Source: Eledone cirrhosa
Lineage: Eukaryota
Assembly: GCA_964016885.1 (NCBI GenBank)
Contig: OZ024740.1
Span: forward strand, 231,012,001-231,076,000
Length of the DNA stretch: 64,000 bases
Direction: 5' to 3'
Shown here: positions 3,099 through 28,400 of the stretch, piece by piece
How the letters are laid out: every line of letters begins with the position of its first letter
Numbering within the stretch: position 1 is the first letter of the stretch
Program-made: the position numbers and the translations under genes
The notes under the pieces: generated by a model
The model's input: the letters and a program-made list of their open reading frames with translations, nothing else
Told to the model about the DNA's origin: nothing
Database searches by the model: none

Positions 3099-5037
3099 GC
3101 CATTCCCGAAGGATCAATCCACGACAGCCTCCACCTTTTGATATATCATAGAAAGGATGGCTAAGGACCCTGGCACAGGTGGTGAACTGATCAACTTAGA
3201 TCAATCGAAAGCATTTGATAAGTCAAGCATTGGTACCTGGCGGTGGTCATCAAAGCAGGATTCTTTGCGCCCGTTTTCAAAGAGTGGATTGCTGCTATGC
3301 ACAGCAATAATGACTCTGGTTAGAGTGAATGGTCACCTCTCAGAACTGTTCAACATCATGCACTTGGTCCGCCAAGGCTGTCCACTCTCGTCCCTGTTGT
3401 ATGTATTGAGCTACTACTGCACAAATTAGAGACATTGAGGGGCATCCCGTGTGAACAAGGACATGGGAAATCTGTCTCAGCTTATGCTGATGACGTCACC
3501 GTTGATGTGTCGAGCACCAAATACATTGAGGTGATCGGCACTGCTCTGAGGGAATATGAAGCGTTGACAGGAGTGAAAATTAACCAGGAAAAGTCAGTGG
3601 GCTTGCAACTCGGCACATGGAGAGGCAGGTCTATGCTGTCCAACAGCATTGTCAGATGCTTGACAGATGGACTTGTTAAATTGCTTAGAGTCTGGCTCAG
3701 TCTGAATCTCCAGATGGCCAAAACTGGGATGAGGTGATGAGAAGGTGATGTGGCTAATCTCACCCAGAAATGGGCCAACAGAAAGCTGTCCCTGAAAGGT
3801 AGAGTAGAGTGGGCGAACGTGTACATGGCGTCCATCATCTACTACCACCTGACCATCATGCCTTGTCCTAGCGGTCCATCTGCTGTCAACACCTGCTGCA
3901 TGGAGGACTAGGAATGCCCTGGCTGATGATGCACAAACATGTGCTAAGGCTACATCTCCATCTTTTCCTTAACTGTGAACAGGTGTGGTCACTGTTCACC
4001 AGATGCATGTTCTTCCAGCTCATCTCCTTGAAGGAGCAGCAGTCCTGGGTCAAGTGGTGACCAAGGGGGGAGCGCTTGGGAACTGGAATGTCTTCAGGTG
4101 CTCGCAACCTTCCGCCAATTGGGTTGTATGATAGGTGGAAACTTCACCTTGGTGTTATATAGAGGGATAGTGGCAGATGAAGGTGACGGTGTTCTTGAGG
4201 AAATTCTAGGCATCGTCAAAAATCACTAGCCACACTCTTTTTGGGAAGACTTTTGGTCCTGGACCTATGGATGATTTCCAGAAATCCCTGGCCTGGCAGT
4301 GCAACTGAGGAGCTTTGCCAGTTTGAGATAAACTCTACAGGCATGGAAATGCCACTAGTTGGGCCTGTCAGAGATGCATGCAGGGCGACGAAACCATCCT
4401 GCATGCAATCATCCAGTACCCAAGCATTGTTGACTTTGGGTTTATGTCGAACACCTGCTGTCGTGTGTAGGACGAATCCGGCTGTCAGCCGAGTGATTGT
4501 GAAGACTGACGCACTGCCTTCCTTTAGTCAGAAAAGGCAGGCTGTTTTTATCTGTCTTGTGCCCATGGTGAAATATGTATGGTGGACGCACTTGAAAGGG
4601 TTGAAGACGAGCACTTTCCTCTTCGGCAAAGCGAAGATTAAATTCTTCAGGTTTCACTAGAAGAGGAATATCAGGGTGGAGAGGGAAGTGCTGACTTCAA
4701 AGCAATTTGTTGAGAGGTGAGCATGGCCTGAGTGAGTGGGCTCGCTCTGAGTGTGAGCCTGTAAATTAGAGGAAAACAACTGGGACAGGGTACTTACCCT
4801 AGATTTCAGGTTTTATGGGTTTTTTTTTCATGAGAGACCCTCAAACGTCTCCTCCCTATTGAGGAATACCCTTGTTTTAATTTTTATTGTTATCTTTCTT
4901 TTTTAACATTTAAAATTTGTTTATACGCAAAAGCCACACACCAACACACACACACTTTATGTTTTCGTTCTGTACTGTCATAATGTTTTTCTTGATGTAA
5001 ACCCTTTGTGGTTAATAAAGAAATCATTATTATTATT
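3099..5037 (+). mobile_element. 5'-truncated Tx1/L1-clade LINE, degenerate ORF2 (RT + C-terminus) and 3' UTR
   Basis: Motifs LDQSKAFD, VRQGCPLS, SAYADDVTV, GGLGMP in broken frames; clear homology to the element at 6.6-10.4 kb; ends AATAAAGAAATC(ATT)n. Confidence 0.85.
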
Positions 5038-5252
5038 GGCAGTACTGGTAGAACGTCAGACACCATGCTTTGTAGCACAGAGTTATGGCCCTTTCCGTTC
5101 TGAGTTCAAATCCCACCAAGGTTAGCTTTGCCTTTTATCCTTACAGTGTGATAAAATAAAGTACCAGTAATGCACTGTGGTCGATTTAATCGACTTTCCC
5201 CTCCCCCAAAATTGCTGTCCTTGCGCCTATAGTAGAAATCATTATTATTATT
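5036..5252 (+). mobile_element. tRNA-derived SINE, long subtype (extra TCGATTTAATCGACTTTCCCCTCCCCCAAA segment)
   Basis: TTGGCAGTACTGG A-box-like, GAGTTCAAATCC B-box, (ATT)n tail; AGAAATCATTATTATTATT at both 5019-5037 and 5234-5252. Confidence 0.9.
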
Positions 5253-5406
5253 AATTATGAACCTTCTAAACATAAGCCATGCATAGCATAAGCTCCAGTT
5301 TATTTTCAAGGTATTTTAACCTTTTTTACCTTCTCTAAGATTTTATTTAAGTTTTAAACTTAATAAAAGTTAAGGTAAATCTGCCTGCTTCCTGCAGGTA
5401 GACTAT

Positions 5407-5903
5407 TTTGTGCTATTTTGGGCTGTCTTACAGTAATAGATTTTGGTTGTCACCTATATATTTTATTTTAATGTATAAAACAATGACGGAGACATCACAA
5501 CACGTTTCTGAAACTAGATATATAAGAGAGAGTCAAAGTTTAACGAAGGGTAAAAATAAGAAATATTTATTGTCTGATGGATTAAAAGAAGTTGTTAGAT
5601 GAAATAACAAGGTATAATAATAATAATTGTTTCTACTATTGGCACAAGGCCAGAAATTACTCAGTACATTACTGGTACTTTATTTTATCGACCCCGTAAG
5701 GATGAAAGGCAAAGTTAACCTCGGCGGGATTTGAACTCAGAATGGCAAGGGCCGTAACTCTATGCGTCAAAGCATGGCGTCCGACCCTCTACCGATACTG
5801 CCAAACGTGTTGTGATGTCTCCGTCATTGTTTTATACATTAAAATAAAATATATAGGTGACAACCAAAATCTATTACTGTAAGACAGCCCAAAATAGCAC
5901 AAA
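5407..5903. repeat. 101-bp inverted repeat pair (5407-5507 / 5803-5903)
   Basis: TTTGTGCTATTTTGGG...CACAACACGTTT reads as the reverse complement of AAACGTGTTGTG...CCCAAAATAGCACAAA; no mismatch seen by eye. Confidence 0.95.
5620..5804 (-). mobile_element. tRNA-derived SINE, near full length, with templated 5' extension
   Basis: Same A/B boxes and core as other copies; TSD AAGGTATAATAATAA at 5609-5623 and 5902-5916. Confidence 0.92.
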
Positions 5904-5994
5904 GGTATAATAATAAACGATTTTAGTTTATATATGGTTTACTTCACGTGAATCAATTAAAAAGTACAATAAAACAGTTATCAAAAGTTGAGAA

Positions 5995-6180
5995 GGTTGA
6001 CGTCGTTGTCGTGCGTCTGAGACCATAGTGAGTTAGAGAGAGTAATGGTTTGTATACCTCTGAATGGTCTGTAGTAGTTGGTTGACGTTGTCGTCGTGAG
6101 TCTGAGATCACAGTGAGTGAGAGAGAGTAATGGTTTGTATACCTCTGAATGGTCTGTAGTAGTTGGTTGACGTTGTCGTT
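5995..6180. repeat. 85-bp tandem repeat, ~2.2 copies
   Basis: GGTTGACG at 5995, 6080, 6165 with near-identical intervening sequence. Confidence 0.9.
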
Positions 6181-7258: not shown

Positions 7259-10200
7259 AGGCCTTAGCCATTAAACCCTTTGTGGCCCCCTGCAGAATGG
7301 GCCGCATTGTAATGTACCCATCCCACATAGGCAGAAGAACTGTAAAGGTCTGCATTCTCAAGGTCCCACCAGAACTGGATTTATGGTGGCTCCTGGGATG
7401 CATGATTGAGGAGAGTACAAGGAGGTTTAGCCAACTGACATCCATGAGCACCCGAAGGTAAGTAACCCCACCTTTTTTTTCCTCTTGACCAGCCAGCTAG
7501 CCAACCAACATGGCAATCATGAGAATGGGTTGCATAAATGTTCGTGGAAGCATGGTCACTTGTTGAATGACCTCAGGTCACTAGATATGGATGTGACTGC
7601 TGTTGGCAAAACCAGGATTTCCAACATACATGAACTAGCCTCTATTTTTGATGACTACCAGATCTTTGCATCTCTTAGTCAGCCAGAAATGGGAGGTGGG
7701 GTCACAGTGCTGTTTAGGAAAGGCCTGGATCTTGAGGTAAGGACGAATTTCCTGGGCCTGGATGGTAAATTGGTGGTCCTGGACATGGGCAATAGCAAAG
7801 GTGGTGCCTTTAAACAGGTACCTGTCTATGCCATGACTGGAGCTGGCTGGCTGGATTTCTTTAGGTGTCTGGAAGCCTTTCAAGGAATGTTTCACCCTTT
7901 ACTATTAGCAGGGGACTGGAACGGCATCTTAGACACATACTGGGATTGTGTGGGAGTAGCTGATCAGCCAGTTCCAACTATCTGACAGGTACTGCTGGGC
8001 TGTTCGGGGGGGGGGGGGGGGTCGGAGACTGGTGGACTTCACTTCCTACCTCGACGGTCTACCATGTCTCTTGCCAGCTGATGTTGAGTGCTGCAAGAGG
8101 CCCATAACATCAGCCAAAATTTGGTATGTCCTGGTCGGCTGCATGAGGTGCAAGTTAGCTGGTTTGGATGATATGCCCTACCAGTTTTATGTAGATATGC
8201 CAGACTTGTTCTCTGATCTCCTCAAAGCCGTCTACTGTAACTGGCAGCAGAATGAGAGTATTCCCAGTTTGGTGAGCCAAGGGTAGTAACACTGATGAGG
8301 AAAGATTAGAACAAGAGGGACACTTTAGATAATTTCAGGCCCATAACTCTGCTAAACACAGAGTTCAAGATTTTGGCCAAGGTGTTAGTGAAGAGGTTGG
8401 CATTTGTTATCAAGGGTTTGGTAGTGGAGGCACAAACTTGCACAATCTCGATCTTGTTCATACACGACAACCTCCACCTTATGTGATACATCATAGAGGC
8501 AAGGAATAAGACTTGCTTCGGTGGGGCTATGACCAATTTAGATCAATTGAAAGCTTTCGATAGGGCTGACCATCGATATCTGGAGGCTGTCTTCAAGGCA
8601 GCTGGCTTCAGGCCCATCTTCAGAGGCTGGATTGCTGCAATGCACAATGGCATCTGCTCAGTGGTCAAAGTTAATAGCCATCTTTTGGAACCATTTCAGA
8701 TCACGTGATCGGTCCATCAAGGGTGCCCTCTCTCCTCCCTTCTGTAGGTATTGATTCTCGAGCCTTAACTGTGGGAACTGGTGCTGGTTCAGGGCATCCC
8801 ACTTGAACTGGGATGGGGAAGGGCTGTGTTGGCATATACGGATGACATCACCGTGATGGTGTTGAACACCTCGGAAATCGAGGTTGTCGGTACCCTCTTA
8901 AAGGAATATGAAAGGTTGATGAGAGCGAAACTAAACCTGGAAAAGTCAGTGGGCTTGCAGCTCAGCACCTGGAGAGGCAAATCCCTGCTGTTCAACAGTG
9001 TCATTGGATGCTGGACAGACGGACCGGTAAAGTTGCTCGAGGTCTGGTTTGGACCAGACCTCCAGGTGGATAAGAACTGGGATGAGGTAATAAGCAGGGT
9101 GGCCACTCTCACCCAGAAATGGATTGAGAGGAAGCTATCCCTGAAAGGTCAGGTGGAGGTGGTGAACACGTACATCACATCCATCATCTATTACTGCCTG
9201 ACTGTCATGTCTTGCCCCCATTTGCACCTCACCAAATTGGAACGCCTACTCTTTAACTTCTTGTAGAAGGGACAGATTCCATTGGAGAGGAAGTCCATTT
9301 GCTGCCAGCACCCTCTATGTGGAGGGCTGGGCATGCTGTGGCTGATGATGCACAAACATGCGCTGAGGCTACAGCATCATCAGATGTTCTTAAACAGCGA
9401 ACATGTCTGGTTGCCATTTGTGAGACGGGCCTTTCCACAGCTTGTCTCTTTGACTGACCTGCAGTCCTGGGTCAAGAAGAGATTGGGACTGGGCGTCTGG
9501 CATCTGGGATGTTACCAGGTGCTCACTGCCCTCTACCAGTTTGACAATTCAGTCACTAGAAATTTGGCGCTAGACTTCTATAGGGGATTAGTGGTGGGCA
9601 AGTGCAACACCACTCTCAGAGAGGCTCTGGTTGTCAACAAAATCACAACTGACCAGTCTGTTCAAGAGGACTTTCGAACCGGGAACTATGGATAACTTTA
9701 AAAAATCTCTCGCTTGGCAGTGCTACTGGGGAACACTGCTGGTTCCAGATAAACTCTACAGGCATGGAAGTGTTGTCAGACGGACCTGCTTGAGATGCGC
9801 GCAGAGTGACAAAATCATTCTGCATGCATTCGTCCAGTGTCCATGCATTACTAACTGATGGAGTTATGTCGAACAGCATGTAGAACAGATCTGTCTATCG
9901 GCTGAGTCCATAGTGAATATCAACTTGTTGCCTTCTATTGGCCAGGAAGAAGTTGTATGATTGACCAGGTTGAAAGGACTGAAGACAGACACTTTTCTCT
10001 TTGGCCAATCCCTCATCAACTTTTTCAAGTTTCACTCAGAAAGAAAGGTGAGGGTGGAAAGGGAAGTGCTGCTCCCCAGTATATTTGCTGAAAGGCAGGT
10101 GAATGTGGCCAGAATGGTTCTGAGCATGCACCTAGGCTGGTTAATTTGAAGAGGAGAGGGGTGCCCTCAAAGCATTGGGTGATTCAGCATTGGTGGGGTA

Positions 10201-10541: not shown

Positions 10542-11962
10542 AAATAATAATAATAATGAAATTATTGTGTAAAGTGCTCAGGTGCACTACAACTCGTCAA
10601 AGTTGCATGTATAGTACATAGAATAATATACAAATGTCAGGGAAGTGAATAGTGTATGAGTCATGATATACATGTGTGTATGTGTATGGAGGGGGAACAT
10701 TAGGTGTAGTGTTGGCGAATCTCGGGAAGCATGGATGTTTTAAAGGATGCAGTGTCTCGACAGCTAACAACTGATGCAGGTAGTTTGTTCCATGCTTCAG
10801 CAACTCTGAGCGTGAAAAAATGTTTCGAAAGTCATGGGAACTGTGCTGTTTTCTGAATTTGTGGGTATTCCCATGTGTGTTAGACACATGGAAATCAAAA
10901 AGGCACTCAGGGTTGTTGTTGGCAAGATGGTTAATAATTTTGTGGGTGTTTACCAAGTCAGTTGCCATGCGTCGGAGCTTCAATGTATCCATGCCCAGGG
11001 AAGCAAGGCGTTCAGAATATGGTAGATGCCTGATGGAGGGTATTCGCTTGGTTGAACGTCTCTGAACAGTTTCCAGGCGGTCAATGTTCTGAGCAAGATA
11101 GGAGCTCCAGACTGGTGATGCAAATCCCTCGGCCCTCTTGACAAGTTTAGAGACGTGCTTTGTCCAACGCAAATCGCTGCTGACCGTAATGCCCAGGTCA
11201 CGTTCACAAGAAGACTTCTTGATATTAGTGCTGTGGAGGGAGTATGTGGACGCTGGGTTTTTACTCCCAAAATGCATGGTGGTGCACTTGTCCACAGCTA
11301 GCTTGAGTTGCCAGTCTGAGATCCATTGTTGCATTGTGTCCAGGTCAGACTGCAAGCAAGATCTATAGTGTTCAGGATCTGTCCTTTTTATCTCAAGGTA
11401 CAGCTTGATGTAATCTGTGTACTTCAGTACTCTGGCATTCTTTAAGTTGGCATCTATATCATTAATATATGCCACAACCAAAAGGGGGCCAAGAACAGAT
11501 CCTGTGGTACACCAGATGACATCTCATATGGTGAGGATTGCTGTCCCAGAACCGTGACTACCTCTCTTCGACTGAGAATGAAGGACTTCAACCAGTTAAA
11601 AAGATCATCCTTCACACCTATTGCAGAGAGTTTTGCCATAAGCCTTTTGTGTGGCACAGAATTGAAAGCCTTCGCAAAGTCAAGGTAAACATAAACAACA
11701 TCCACCCATGAGCTGCCATCAGTGATCCGGGTGATGTCTTCAAGAAACTCGATAATTTGATCACAGCAGCTGGAGTTGGGGATAAATCCAAATTGCGAGG
11801 GCCGGATAAGATTGTGAGGGTTCCAGAAGTTCCAAAGTGTTTCTCTGACACAGGATTCCATCAGTTTGGCAATGCAACTAGTAAGACTGACTGGACGATA
11901 GTTTACAGGTGATGTGCGGTCACCCTTTTTGAACACAGGAATGACACTGGCAGTTTTCCATA
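10542..11962 (-). mobile_element. 5'-truncated CR1-group LINE (RT and 3' UTR), frameshifted
   Basis: ORFs 11454-11978 and 10597-11481: WKTASVIPVFKKGD, NYRPVSLTS, YLDFAKAFNSVPH, SGVPQ, YTDYIKL (degenerate ADD motif), ERDLGI, LETVQRR; (TTA)n tail near 10543-10557. Confidence 0.9.
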
Positions 11963-12449
11963 AGCAATTTTGTATCATAAAACTATGTTGGTTTCAGGAG
12001 GGTTGGTATCAAAAGGGTTAATGATGAATATTAAAAAAAAAAATGTATATACTGAAGAAAGTCAATTGGTTGACAATTACACTTGAGCTGAAATCAACTC
12101 AAGTTACCCCTTCATATATATTTGTATAGAAGAGTTTGTCTTTCACAATGTATGTTCTACTTCAGATAAGACATGGTCTGGAGTACTTACAAAATAAAAA
12201 ATATATTAAGTTAAAAAATATTACTCTTTAATCCTGTTGTAGTTAGTATTGGAGACTTAGGTGTTAAACATGTATAAAAGTACATACACATAAAAACAAA
12301 ATTAAGTAATGAAAGGAGAATGGAAGGGGTAAAGGAGGGCAGATCTGACTGTTTAGGAAAGTAAAGGATTATAAATGACATAAATGAGAGGAAAAGGAGG
12401 GAAAAAGCAAGGACAATTAAGCCATGGAAGAAAGAGAGGGTGATAGGCT

Positions 12450-25400: not shown

Positions 25401-28400
25401 CTATAATGTGGTATGTCTCTAGGACTACTATTACAACCCTACTATAATGGGGTATGTCTCTAGGACTACTATTACAACACTACTATAATGGGGGATGTCT
25501 CTAGGACTACTATTACAACACTACTATAATGGGGGATGTCTCTAGGATTACTATTACAACCCTACTATAATAGGGGATGTCTCTAGGTCTACTATTACTA
25601 CACTACTATAATGGGAGATGTCTCTAGGATTACTATTACAACCCTACTATAATAGGGGATGTCTCTAGAACTACTATTACAACCCTACTATAATGGGAGA
25701 TGTCTCTAGGACTACTATTACAACCCTACTATAATGGAGGATGTCTCTAGGACTACTATTACAACCCTACTATAATGGGGTATGTCTCTAGGGCTACTAT
25801 TACAACACTACTATAATGGGAGATGTCTCTAAGACTACTATTACAACCCTACTATAATGGGAGATGTCTCTAGGACTACTATTACAACCCTACTATAATG
25901 GGAGATGTCTCTAGGGCTACTATTACAACCCTACTATAATGGAGGATGTCTCTAGGACTACTATTACAACCCTACTATAATAGGGGATGTCTCTAGGACT
26001 ACTATTACAACCCTACTATAATGGGGTATGTCTCTAGAACTACTATTACAACCCTACTATAATGGGGTATATCTCTAGGACTACTATTACAACACTACTA
26101 TAATAGGGGATGTCTCTAGGACTACTATTACAACCCTACTATAATGGGAGATGTCTCTAGGACTACTATTACAACCCTACTATAATGGAGGATGTCTCTA
26201 GGACTACTATTACAACCCTACTATAATGGGGTACTATTACAGCCCTACTATAATGGGGGATATCTCTAGGACTACTGTTACAACCCTACTATAATAGGGG
26301 ATGTCTCCAGGACTACTATTACAACCCTACTATAATGGGAGATGTCTCTAGGACTACTATTACAACACTACTATAATAGGGGATGTCTCTAGGACTACTA
26401 TTACAACCCTACTATAATGGGAGATGTCTCTAGGACTACTATTACAACCCTACTATAATAGGGGATGTCTCTAGGACTACTATTACAACCCTACTATAAT
26501 GGGGGATGTCTCTAGGACTACTATTACAACCCTAATATAATGGCGGATGTCTCTAGGACTAATATTACAACCCTATTATAATGGGGGATATCTCTAGGAC
26601 TACTATTACAACACTACTATAATAGGGGATGTCTCTAGGACTACTATTACAACACTACTATAATGGGAGATGTCTCTAGGACTACTATTACAACCCTACT
26701 ATAATGGGAGATGTCTCTAGGACTACTATTACAACCCTACTATAATGGGAGATGTCTCTAAGACTACTATTACAACCCTACTATAATGGGAGATGTCTAT
26801 AGGACTACTATTACAACCCTACTATAATGGGGTATGTCTCTAGGACTACTATTACAACCCTACTATAATGGAGGATATCACTAGGACTACTGTTACAACC
26901 CTACTATAATAGGGGATGTCTCTAGGACTACTATTACAACCCTACTATAATGGGAGATGTCTCTAGGACTACTATTACAACACTACTATAATAGGGGATG
27001 TCTCTAGGACTAATATTACAACCCTACTATAATGGGAGATGTCTCTAGGACTACTATTACAACCCTACTATAATGGAGGATGTCTCTAGGACTACTATTA
27101 CAACCCTACTATAATGGGAGATGTCTCTAGGACTACTATTACAACCCTACTATAATAGGAGATGTCTCTAGGACTACTTTTACAACCCTACTATAATGGA
27201 GGATGTCTCTAGGACTACTATTACAACCCTACTATAATAGGGGATGTCTCTAAGACTACTATTACAACCCTACTATAATGTGGTATGTCTCTAGGACTAC
27301 TATTACAACCCTACTATAATGGGGTATGTCTCTAGGACTACTATTACAACACTACTATAATGGAGGATGTCTCTAGGACTACTATTACAACCCTACTATA
27401 ATGGGAGATGTCTATAGGACTACTATTACAACCCTACTATAATAGGGGATGTCTCTAGGACTACTATTACAACCCTACTATAATGGAGGATGTCTCTAGG
27501 ACTACTATTACAACCCTACTATAATGGGGTACTATTACAGCCCTACTATAATGGGGGATATCTCTAGGACTACTGTTACAACCCTACTATAATAGGGGAT
27601 GTCTCTAGGACTACTATTACAACCCTACTATAATGGGAGATGTCTCTAGGACTACTATTACAACACTACTATAATAGGGGATGTCTCTAGGACTACTATT
27701 ACAACCCTACTATAATGGGAGATGTCTCTAGGACTACTATTACAACCCTACTATAATAGGGGATGTCTCTAGGACTACTATTACAACCCTACTATAATGG
27801 GGGATGTCTCTAGGACTACTATTACAACCCTAATATAATGGCGGATGTCTCTAGGACTACTATTACAACCCTACTATAATGGGGGATATCTCTAGGACTA
27901 CTATTACAACACTACTATAATAGGGGATGTCTCTAGGACTACTATTACAACACTACTATAATGGGAGATGTCTCTAGGACTACTATTACAACCCTACTAT
28001 AATGGGAGATGTCTCTAGGACTACTATTACAACCCTACTATAATAGGGGATGTCTCTAGGACTACTATTACAACACTACTATAATGGGAGATGTCTCTAG
28101 GACTACTATTACAACCCTACTATAATAGGGGATGTCTCTAGAACTACTATTACAACCCTACTATAATGGGAGATGTCTCTAGGACTACTATTACAACCCT
28201 ACTATAATGGAGGATGTCTCTAAAACTACTATTACAACCCTACTATAATGGGGTATGTCTCTAGGGCTACTATTACAACCCTACTATAATGGGAGATGTC
28301 TCTAGGACTACTATTACAACCCTACTATAATGGGGGATATCTCTAGGACTACTATTACAACCCTACTATATTGGAGGATGTCTCTAGGGCTACTATTACA

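What the first reader, a model, noticed from the sequence alone, without database searches (positions are those of the whole stretch)
5407..5916. SINE with 101 bp of locally templated, inverted genomic DNA captured inside its TSD
Seen: TSD AAGGTATAATAATAA (5609-5623, 5902-5916) encloses the SINE plus 5803-5903, an apparently exact reverse complement of 5407-5507, which lies 100-200 bp beyond the SINE 3' end; both junctions have only AA microhomology. Inference: after finishing the RNA, synthesis jumped to nearby genomic DNA, copied 101 nt, then joined the target. Arm identity implies a recent event. Templated 5' junction inserts are known for mammalian L1 insertions; I do not know of them being described for this SINE family.
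Basis: partly seen in the sequence, partly recalled or inferred. Interest (0 to 1): 0.75.

Follow-up and report, generated by a model that had tools for sequence, protein, structure and literature searches.

The report
SINE insertion carrying inverted neighbouring DNA
A very young short jumping element (SINE) sits next to an exact 101-base backwards copy of DNA from 100-200 bases away, both inside one pair of insertion-site repeats; it was likely made in a single insertion when the new DNA end copied nearby DNA before being joined, a rare but already described by-product of retrotransposition.

Summary
Arms 5407-5507 and 5803-5903 are 100% complementary, and a 15-bp TSD (5609-5623, 5902-5916) encloses the SINE plus the second arm. 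An arm 20-mer occurs only at these two places in the 3-Gb genome, so the arm is not a transposon terminal repeat or a transduction. The target is an older repeat: 8 of 8 paralogues lack both SINE and arm. The SINE is very young (4 other copies 100% identical) and lacks its first 10 nt, so 'after finishing the RNA' is not exact. Most likely TPRT was followed by snap-back of the cDNA end onto its own strand and 2-nt microhomology joining; priming from the other DNA end gives the same sequence. Among 204 other copies I found 2 candidate analogues and no shown enrichment over controls. Genotyping failed for lack of coverage. The junction class is published for R2 (snap-back), L1 and zebrafish LINEs, and this scan has noted it before in this genome and another. 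Verdict: a real, clean natural example of a known kind.

The parts
5407..5507 (+). Template arm: single-copy host DNA on the SINE's 3' flank, 101-202 nt beyond the TSD
5508..5608 (.). Spacer of 101 nt; 5539-5608 is the left part of an older host repeat into which the SINE inserted
5609..5623 (-). TSD copy on the SINE 3' side; overlaps the (ATT)n tail, and its start fits the family target consensus Y/ATTATT
5624..5804 (-). Young tRNA-type SINE, nt 11-191 of the full-length element (5' 10 nt missing); B-box-like motif present; 4 other copies 100% identical over 179 nt
5803..5903 (-). Captured 101-nt inverted copy of 5407-5507, with 2-nt microhomology at each end
5902..5916 (-). TSD copy on the SINE 5' side
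5917..6000 (.). Continuation of the host repeat; follows 5539-5623 in paralogous copies (proxy empty site)
5035..5253 (+). Older, oppositely oriented SINE of the long form (86% over 144 nt), not part of the event

Best explanation
The SINE and the 101-nt inverted copy lie inside one 15-bp target-site duplication and likely arose in one LINE-driven insertion, in which the new cDNA end likely folded back and copied flanking DNA of its own strand before being joined. Inferred steps: (1) a LINE endonuclease nicked at a Y/ATTATT site, and the (ATT)n tail primed reverse transcription on the window + strand; (2) cDNA synthesis ended, or was trimmed, 10 nt short of the SINE 5' end; (3) after the second nick 15 bp away, the opposite strand was resected or displaced for at least about 100 nt; (4) the cDNA 3' end (AA) primed on TT at 5506-5507, closing a loop of about 300 nt, and was extended 101 nt away from the break by a host polymerase (Pol theta-like) or by the LINE RT; (5) the product was released, annealed by AA/TT to the TSD overhang and filled in. 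Shown: the anatomy, uniqueness of the arm, the proxy empty site and the youth of the SINE. Inferred: steps 1-5 and the enzyme. That it was one insertion event with locally templated synthesis is about 0.87 likely; this particular polarity is about 0.55.
For: The TSD encloses both parts and is intact at both ends. Its length lies in the family range, 10-21 bp in 63 copies, and its start matches the family target consensus. The arm is unique and local. Paralogues of the host repeat lack both SINE and arm in 8 of 8 cases; 6 of 8 join left to right flank with little or no extra sequence, and 2 carry a 20-30 nt AT-rich linker. SINE and arms both show zero divergence. Chance of at least 2-nt microhomology is about 13% at junction 1 and 22% at junction 2. 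Logan contigs of two runs of one sample both end exactly at 5507, as a branch point there would cause, with depth ratios 1.41 and 1.61 against 1.52 expected for two arm copies. Other copies show synthesis at the 5' junction: L082 (47-nt inverted piece from +300, unique, inside a 10-bp TSD), L057 (about 19-nt fold-back inside a 20-bp TSD) and L144 (TSD copied twice). The source lies on the cDNA-primed side in inverted orientation, which matches the published definition of snap-back onto nearby DNA (PMC11371274, PMC11331408; passages).
Against: The microhomology is only 2 nt at each end, and the product is identical under priming from the other end. L057 shows that the upstream end does fold back in this family, which favours the first rival. 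No junction-adjacent antisense copy of the SINE itself was found in 205 copies: all 5 loci hit were AT-rich or palindromic TSD matches. The survey shows no enrichment over controls: 7 of 204 other junctions against 22 of 820 pseudo-junctions had an exact inverted match. For arms of at least 40 nt and 97%, it was 3 of 204, of which 2 were pre-existing repeats, against 2 of 3280. No listed contig bridges either junction, and no true empty allele was seen. The read sample may be the one the assembly came from.
Confidence: 0.55

Rival explanations
1. Same single insertion with opposite polarity. The 3' overhang of the upstream target end (ending TT) primed on the minus strand of the far flank at 5407, in cis or on the sister chromatid, copied towards the break, ran off at a 5' end resected to 5507, and was then joined to the cDNA end by 2 nt.
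For: It gives the identical sequence, and run-off at a resected end would explain the stop at 5507. L057 shows the TSD overhang priming local synthesis in this family. L1 papers attribute such inserts to processing of the reciprocal end (PMC11702581 sections 7 and 13).
Against: It needs the normally resected strand as template, or strand invasion on 2 nt of homology.
Confidence: 0.27
2. Two events: an ordinary SINE insertion, then a later double-strand break at its 5' end repaired with a templated inverted insertion that removed 10 nt of the SINE.
For: Templated inversions are a general end-joining scar (established knowledge, recalled). Inverted local repeats unrelated to SINEs exist in this genome (44 of 3280 pseudo-junctions).
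Against: The break would have to fall exactly between an intact TSD and the SINE head, in an element with zero divergence. 5' truncation is common without such inserts: 20 of 116 copies not chosen for their junction lack 8 nt or more.
Confidence: 0.08
3. The LINE RT jumped from the SINE RNA onto a local nascent + strand RNA ending near 5507 and copied 101 nt of RNA.
For: The orientation fits a + strand RNA template. RNA template jumps ('extra template') are known for R2 (PMC11371274, passages).
Against: There is no evidence of transcription here: no ORF of 150 aa or more overlaps the site, and run X20 (type unrecorded) has no cover of the arm.
Confidence: 0.05
4. Assembly artefact (chimeric or fold-back read, or polishing); arm and spacer both being 101 nt recalls a common short-read length.
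For: 100% arm identity, the 101/101 coincidence, and no listed contig bridging the junctions.
Against: The precise TSD lies outside the arm, and paralogues have a single TSD copy. Read-derived contigs break at 5507 in two runs and have raised depth.
Confidence: 0.04
5. The arms are terminal inverted repeats of a multi-copy DNA transposon, or a pre-existing inverted repeat into which the SINE landed.
For: This explained look-alikes in the survey: L085 (971 candidate copies) and L058, L111, L222.
Against: The arm is unique, the TSD lies inside one arm and outside the other, and paralogous empty sites lack the arm.
Confidence: 0.01

Closest known systems
'Snap-back' 5' junctions of R2-protein PRINT insertions (PMC11371274; PMC11331408; passages read)
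   Same: The cDNA 3' end is extended by priming on a nearby DNA strand, leaving reverse-complemented local DNA at the 5' junction; low frequency.
   Different: Those are engineered, site-specific rDNA insertions in human cells, mostly snapping back on the cDNA itself. Here it is a natural germline SINE with a 15-bp TSD and a flank template about 300 nt back.
L1-mediated insertions with genomic DNA templated near the integration site, inversions and inverted duplications (PMC11702581; sections 7 and 13 and passages read, supplementary figures S9/S10 not seen)
   Same: TPRT hallmarks plus local templated or inverted genomic DNA, attributed to end processing before ligation.
   Different: Human L1 over-expression in cultured cells with poly-A tails. 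Here it is an invertebrate tRNA-type SINE with an (ATT)n tail and an unknown LINE partner.
'Extra nucleotides' of the annealing 5'-joining pathway of zebrafish ZfL2-1/2 LINEs (PMC4760211; parts 1-2 of 4 read)
   Same: 1-2 bp microhomology, 5' truncation, and extra nucleotides templated from flanking genomic DNA.
   Different: LINEs in cell lines with short TSDs; the passages read give no length or orientation comparable to a 101-nt inverted piece.
5' extranucleotides of Alu (about 12% of insertions; PMC2912911; passages read)
   Same: A SINE mobilised in trans with extra bases between TSD and 5' end.
   Different: The passages read do not trace the Alu extra bases to inverted flanking DNA.

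Membership tests
SINE inserted by TPRT | Short, non-coding, high-copy interspersed element | tested here: met
   191-nt full length; 5,943 exact copies of a 46-mer
SINE inserted by TPRT | Pol III internal promoter / tRNA-derived head | tested here: inconclusive
   B-box-like motif at nt 79; the strict A-box pattern (recalled) is not matched; ARAGORN found 0 and Rfam no relevant hit
SINE inserted by TPRT | Simple-repeat 3' tail and variable-length TSDs | tested here: met
   (ATT)n tail; TSDs of 10-21 bp in 63 of 116 copies not chosen for their junction; target consensus Y/ATTATT
SINE inserted by TPRT | Identified partner LINE sharing the 3' end | not tested
   No LINE tail comparison was run
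Named octopus SINE family (OK/OR1/OR2 type; names recalled) | Sequence match to a published consensus | not testable with these tools
   No repeat library is available; the octopus resemblance is recalled and echoed by unchecked earlier notes
Snap-back / locally templated 5' junction insertion | Extra DNA lies between the 5' TSD and the element 5' end | tested here: met
Snap-back / locally templated 5' junction insertion | Extra DNA is the reverse complement of unique nearby genomic DNA | tested here: met
Snap-back / locally templated 5' junction insertion | Pre-insertion site lacks both element and extra DNA | tested here: inconclusive
   Met in 8 of 8 paralogous repeat copies; no orthologous empty allele was covered by reads
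Snap-back / locally templated 5' junction insertion | Synthesis primed by the cDNA 3' end | not testable with these tools
   The product is symmetric with respect to priming order
DNA transposon / MITE with TIRs | Arms are multi-copy and flanked outside by a TSD | tested here: not met
   Arm occurs twice, both local; the TSD geometry does not fit
Twin-primed 5' inversion or transduction | Inverted or extra part derives from the element RNA or the donor locus | tested here: not met
   The extra part derives from the target locus only

The most novel reading that the evidence does not exclude
This SINE family leaves tens to hundreds of germline snap-back scars whose template distance and length follow a fixed ruler (here 101 nt of spacer plus 101 nt copied, about one nucleosome repeat), or which are copied by the LINE RT from nascent host RNA. 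The set would then be a natural in vivo map of end resection and 5' joining at TPRT intermediates.
Probability: 0.08. Interest if true: 0.55.

Novelty: new member of a known kind. Interest (0 to 1): 0.27.

Why it matters
How the 5' end of a non-LTR insertion is joined is still incompletely known, and most evidence comes from cultured vertebrate cells. This is a base-perfect natural example in an invertebrate-type germline, showing that a SINE can duplicate and invert unique host DNA and create a long hairpin. As a single locus it cannot separate the competing mechanisms. Its value lies in a genome-wide collection: about 4,000 copies match the non-canonical-head pattern, and 2 of 89 sampled were candidates, so tens of cases may exist (inference).

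Tried and rejected
Genotyping: RAD runs X21-X23 gave 0, 1 and 0 reads on 5262-5640, so there was no test. X20 and X1 do not cover the unique part, and SINE contigs swamped. Partial depth at 5820-5881 in X17/X19 fits junction contigs or a short paralogous match equally well and was not used. Survey: 220 loci fetched, 5 duplicates and 10 without a recognisable tail dropped, 205 examined including the query. Rejected look-alikes: L058, L111 and L222 (pre-existing inverted repeats), L085 (multi-copy inverted repeat), L052, L013, L040, L080, L139 and L143 (palindromic TSD or simple/minisatellite context), and L218 (21 nt, about 1 kb away, background level). L057 came from the exact screen and was missed by the blast screen; its genome-wide uniqueness was not tested. 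The search for self snap-back (antisense SINE at the 5' junction) found none in 205. Rfam and ARAGORN gave nothing relevant. The genome search returned nothing because common words are skipped, so it is uninformative. Paper searches for a report in this SINE family found none; subscription papers and the supplementary figures of PMC11702581 were not seen and may hold closer cases. PMC13295347 (outline and abstract), 10.1101/2024.05.03.592410 and PMC9115989 (passages) added nothing decisive.

Full report
Observation. The region reads, on the + strand: unique DNA 5407-5507, a 101-nt spacer, AAGGTATAATAATAA (5609-5623), a minus-strand SINE (5624-5804), the exact reverse complement of 5407-5507 (5803-5903), and the same 15-mer again (5902-5916). 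Each end of the insert shares 2 nt with its neighbour.

The SINE. The window lies at G000:C1:231012001-231076000 in a 3.0-Gb assembly. Of 400 candidates, 40 were scored; 4 other copies are 100% identical over 179 nt and all 40 are at least 97% identical. A 46-mer of the head occurs 5,943 times exactly. Full-length copies begin 10 nt further 5' (L012, L013), so this copy is 5'-truncated; 20 of 116 copies not selected for their junction lack 8 nt or more. In 63 of those 116 copies a TSD of 10-21 bp adjoins the element, starting at a Y/ATTATT target that overlaps the (ATT)n tail; the TSD here fits. A B-box-like motif is present, but a strict A-box pattern is not matched. The resemblance to octopus tRNA-derived SINEs is recalled and was not tested.

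The captured arm. A DNA search with 5400-5610 finds the full arm only at its two local places (this tool skips common words, and it also gave one 62-nt hit at 82% over part of the arm). A 20-mer with up to one mismatch also occurs only there. The arm is therefore neither a transposon terminal repeat nor a transduction from a donor locus.

Proxy empty site. The insertion sits in an older repeat. In 8 of 8 paralogues examined, the left part (5539-5623) is followed by the right part (5917 onward) without SINE or arm. Six of the 8 do so with little or no extra sequence, L005 with one TSD-like copy, and two carry a short AT-rich linker. This confirms the TSD and shows that SINE and arm are both inserted, but it does not order the two in time.

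Reads. Logan contigs of runs X17 and X18 (one sample, possibly the assembly's source) each hold a 166-nt contig 5342-5507 that ends exactly at the arm end, as expected if two different sequences follow it. Depth ratios to the upstream contig are 1.41 and 1.61, against 1.52 expected for two arm copies and 1.0 for one. This evidence is indirect: no listed contig bridges a junction, the contig is not broken at the other arm end, and a variant at 5321 may lower the reference depth. Three RAD runs had no usable cover, so the locus was not genotyped.

Is it recurrent? I examined 205 non-redundant copies (220 fetched; 5 duplicates and 10 without tail dropped): 39 nearest copies including the query, 89 chosen for a non-canonical head, and 77 from the 46-mer list. 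Most junction-adjacent inverted matches were pre-existing repeats (L058, L111, L222) or a multi-copy element (L085). Two candidates remain, both from the enriched set (2 of 89; 0 of 115 others). L082 has a unique 47-nt inverted piece (46/47 identical) from 300 nt downstream inside a 10-bp TSD. L057 has a fold-back of about 19 nt of upstream flank primed from a hairpin-forming 20-bp TSD. L144 has its TSD copied twice at the 5' junction. Against controls there is no shown enrichment: 7 of 204 junctions against 22 of 820 pseudo-junctions in the exact screen, and 1 retained of 204 against 2 of 3280 for long, near-perfect arms. No antisense SINE at the 5' junction was found in 205. The class is rare, on the order of 1% or less.

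Mechanism. The cDNA is the + strand, primed at 5609-5623. Continuing it past the SINE head gives 5803-5903, which is what a polymerase would write by reading the same + strand from 5507 back to 5407. The simplest model (inferred) is exposure of that strand by resection or displacement after the second nick, fold-back of the cDNA end on 2 nt, 101 nt of synthesis away from the break, release, and 2-nt joining to the TSD overhang. Chance of 2 nt or more of microhomology is about 13% and 22% at the two junctions, which is mild support for annealing-guided joining. The older antisense-oriented SINE at 5035-5253 would have offered far more pairing and was not used, suggesting that exposure did not reach it (inference). 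Priming from the upstream target end on the minus strand gives the same product and remains a strong rival (0.27). Later repair (0.08), a nascent RNA template (0.05) and artefact (0.04) are weaker. The equal 101-nt lengths of arm and spacer are unexplained.

What is known. Snap-back junctions, where the cDNA end primes on the cDNA or less often on nearby DNA, are defined for R2-based insertions (PMC11371274 and PMC11331408, passages). L1-driven insertions with locally templated DNA, inversions and inverted duplications are reported in PMC11702581 (sections 7 and 13 and passages). Flank-templated extra nucleotides with 1-2 bp microhomology are reviewed for zebrafish LINEs (PMC4760211, parts 1-2 of 4). 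About 12% of Alu insertions have 5' extra bases (PMC2912911, passages). Eight answered paper searches found no report for this SINE family; subscription papers and unseen supplements may hold one. Unchecked notes of this scan describe the same class in another genome and twice in this one; I treat them as leads only, and my sample did not reproduce the self-fold-back type they describe.

Verdict. The feature is real and precisely described, and it is very likely one insertion event with locally templated synthesis. It is a new member of a known kind. Interest 0.27.

Noticed in passing
window 5508-5608: The spacer between arm and TSD is exactly as long as the arm (101 nt); unexplained and possibly chance.
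   Followed up: partly
window 5035-5253, 5407-5507, 5615-5804, 5803-5903: Two interleaved inverted repeats (old SINE with new SINE, arm with arm) would give a pseudoknot-like or competing double-stranded structure if transcribed.
   Followed up: no
window 5019-5037 and 5234-5252: A 19-nt perfect direct repeat around the older SINE, probably its TSD plus tail.
   Followed up: no
window 19485-64000: A 44.5-kb satellite of a 41-nt unit (about 1085 copies, 91% matches) with recurring 68-nt variant units at 26164, 27462, 44462 and 45760, suggesting a higher-order repeat.
   Followed up: no
window 7431-9266 (+) and 10597-11993 (-): Broken ORFs that look by eye like endonuclease/reverse-transcriptase fragments of two LINEs; not scanned against Pfam.
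   Followed up: no
L057 (G000:C1:16313795-16316821), SINE 5' junction: A hairpin-forming 20-bp TSD followed by a fold-back copy of about 19 nt of upstream flank.
   Followed up: partly
L082 (G000:C1:41403758-41406784), SINE 5' junction: 67 extra nt including a unique 47-nt inverted copy from 300 nt downstream and a recopied piece of the TSD.
   Followed up: yes
L144 (G000:C1:2779171-2782216): The TSD is copied twice in tandem at the SINE 5' junction.
   Followed up: partly
L056, L075: Tandem arrays of the SINE head (about 33-45-nt units) upstream of the element; in L075 they lie inside a 19-bp TSD.
   Followed up: no
L012, L013, L017, L027, L050, L061, L064, L111: Young SINEs often insert at the ATTATT tail of an earlier SINE, making tandem dimers.
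   Followed up: no
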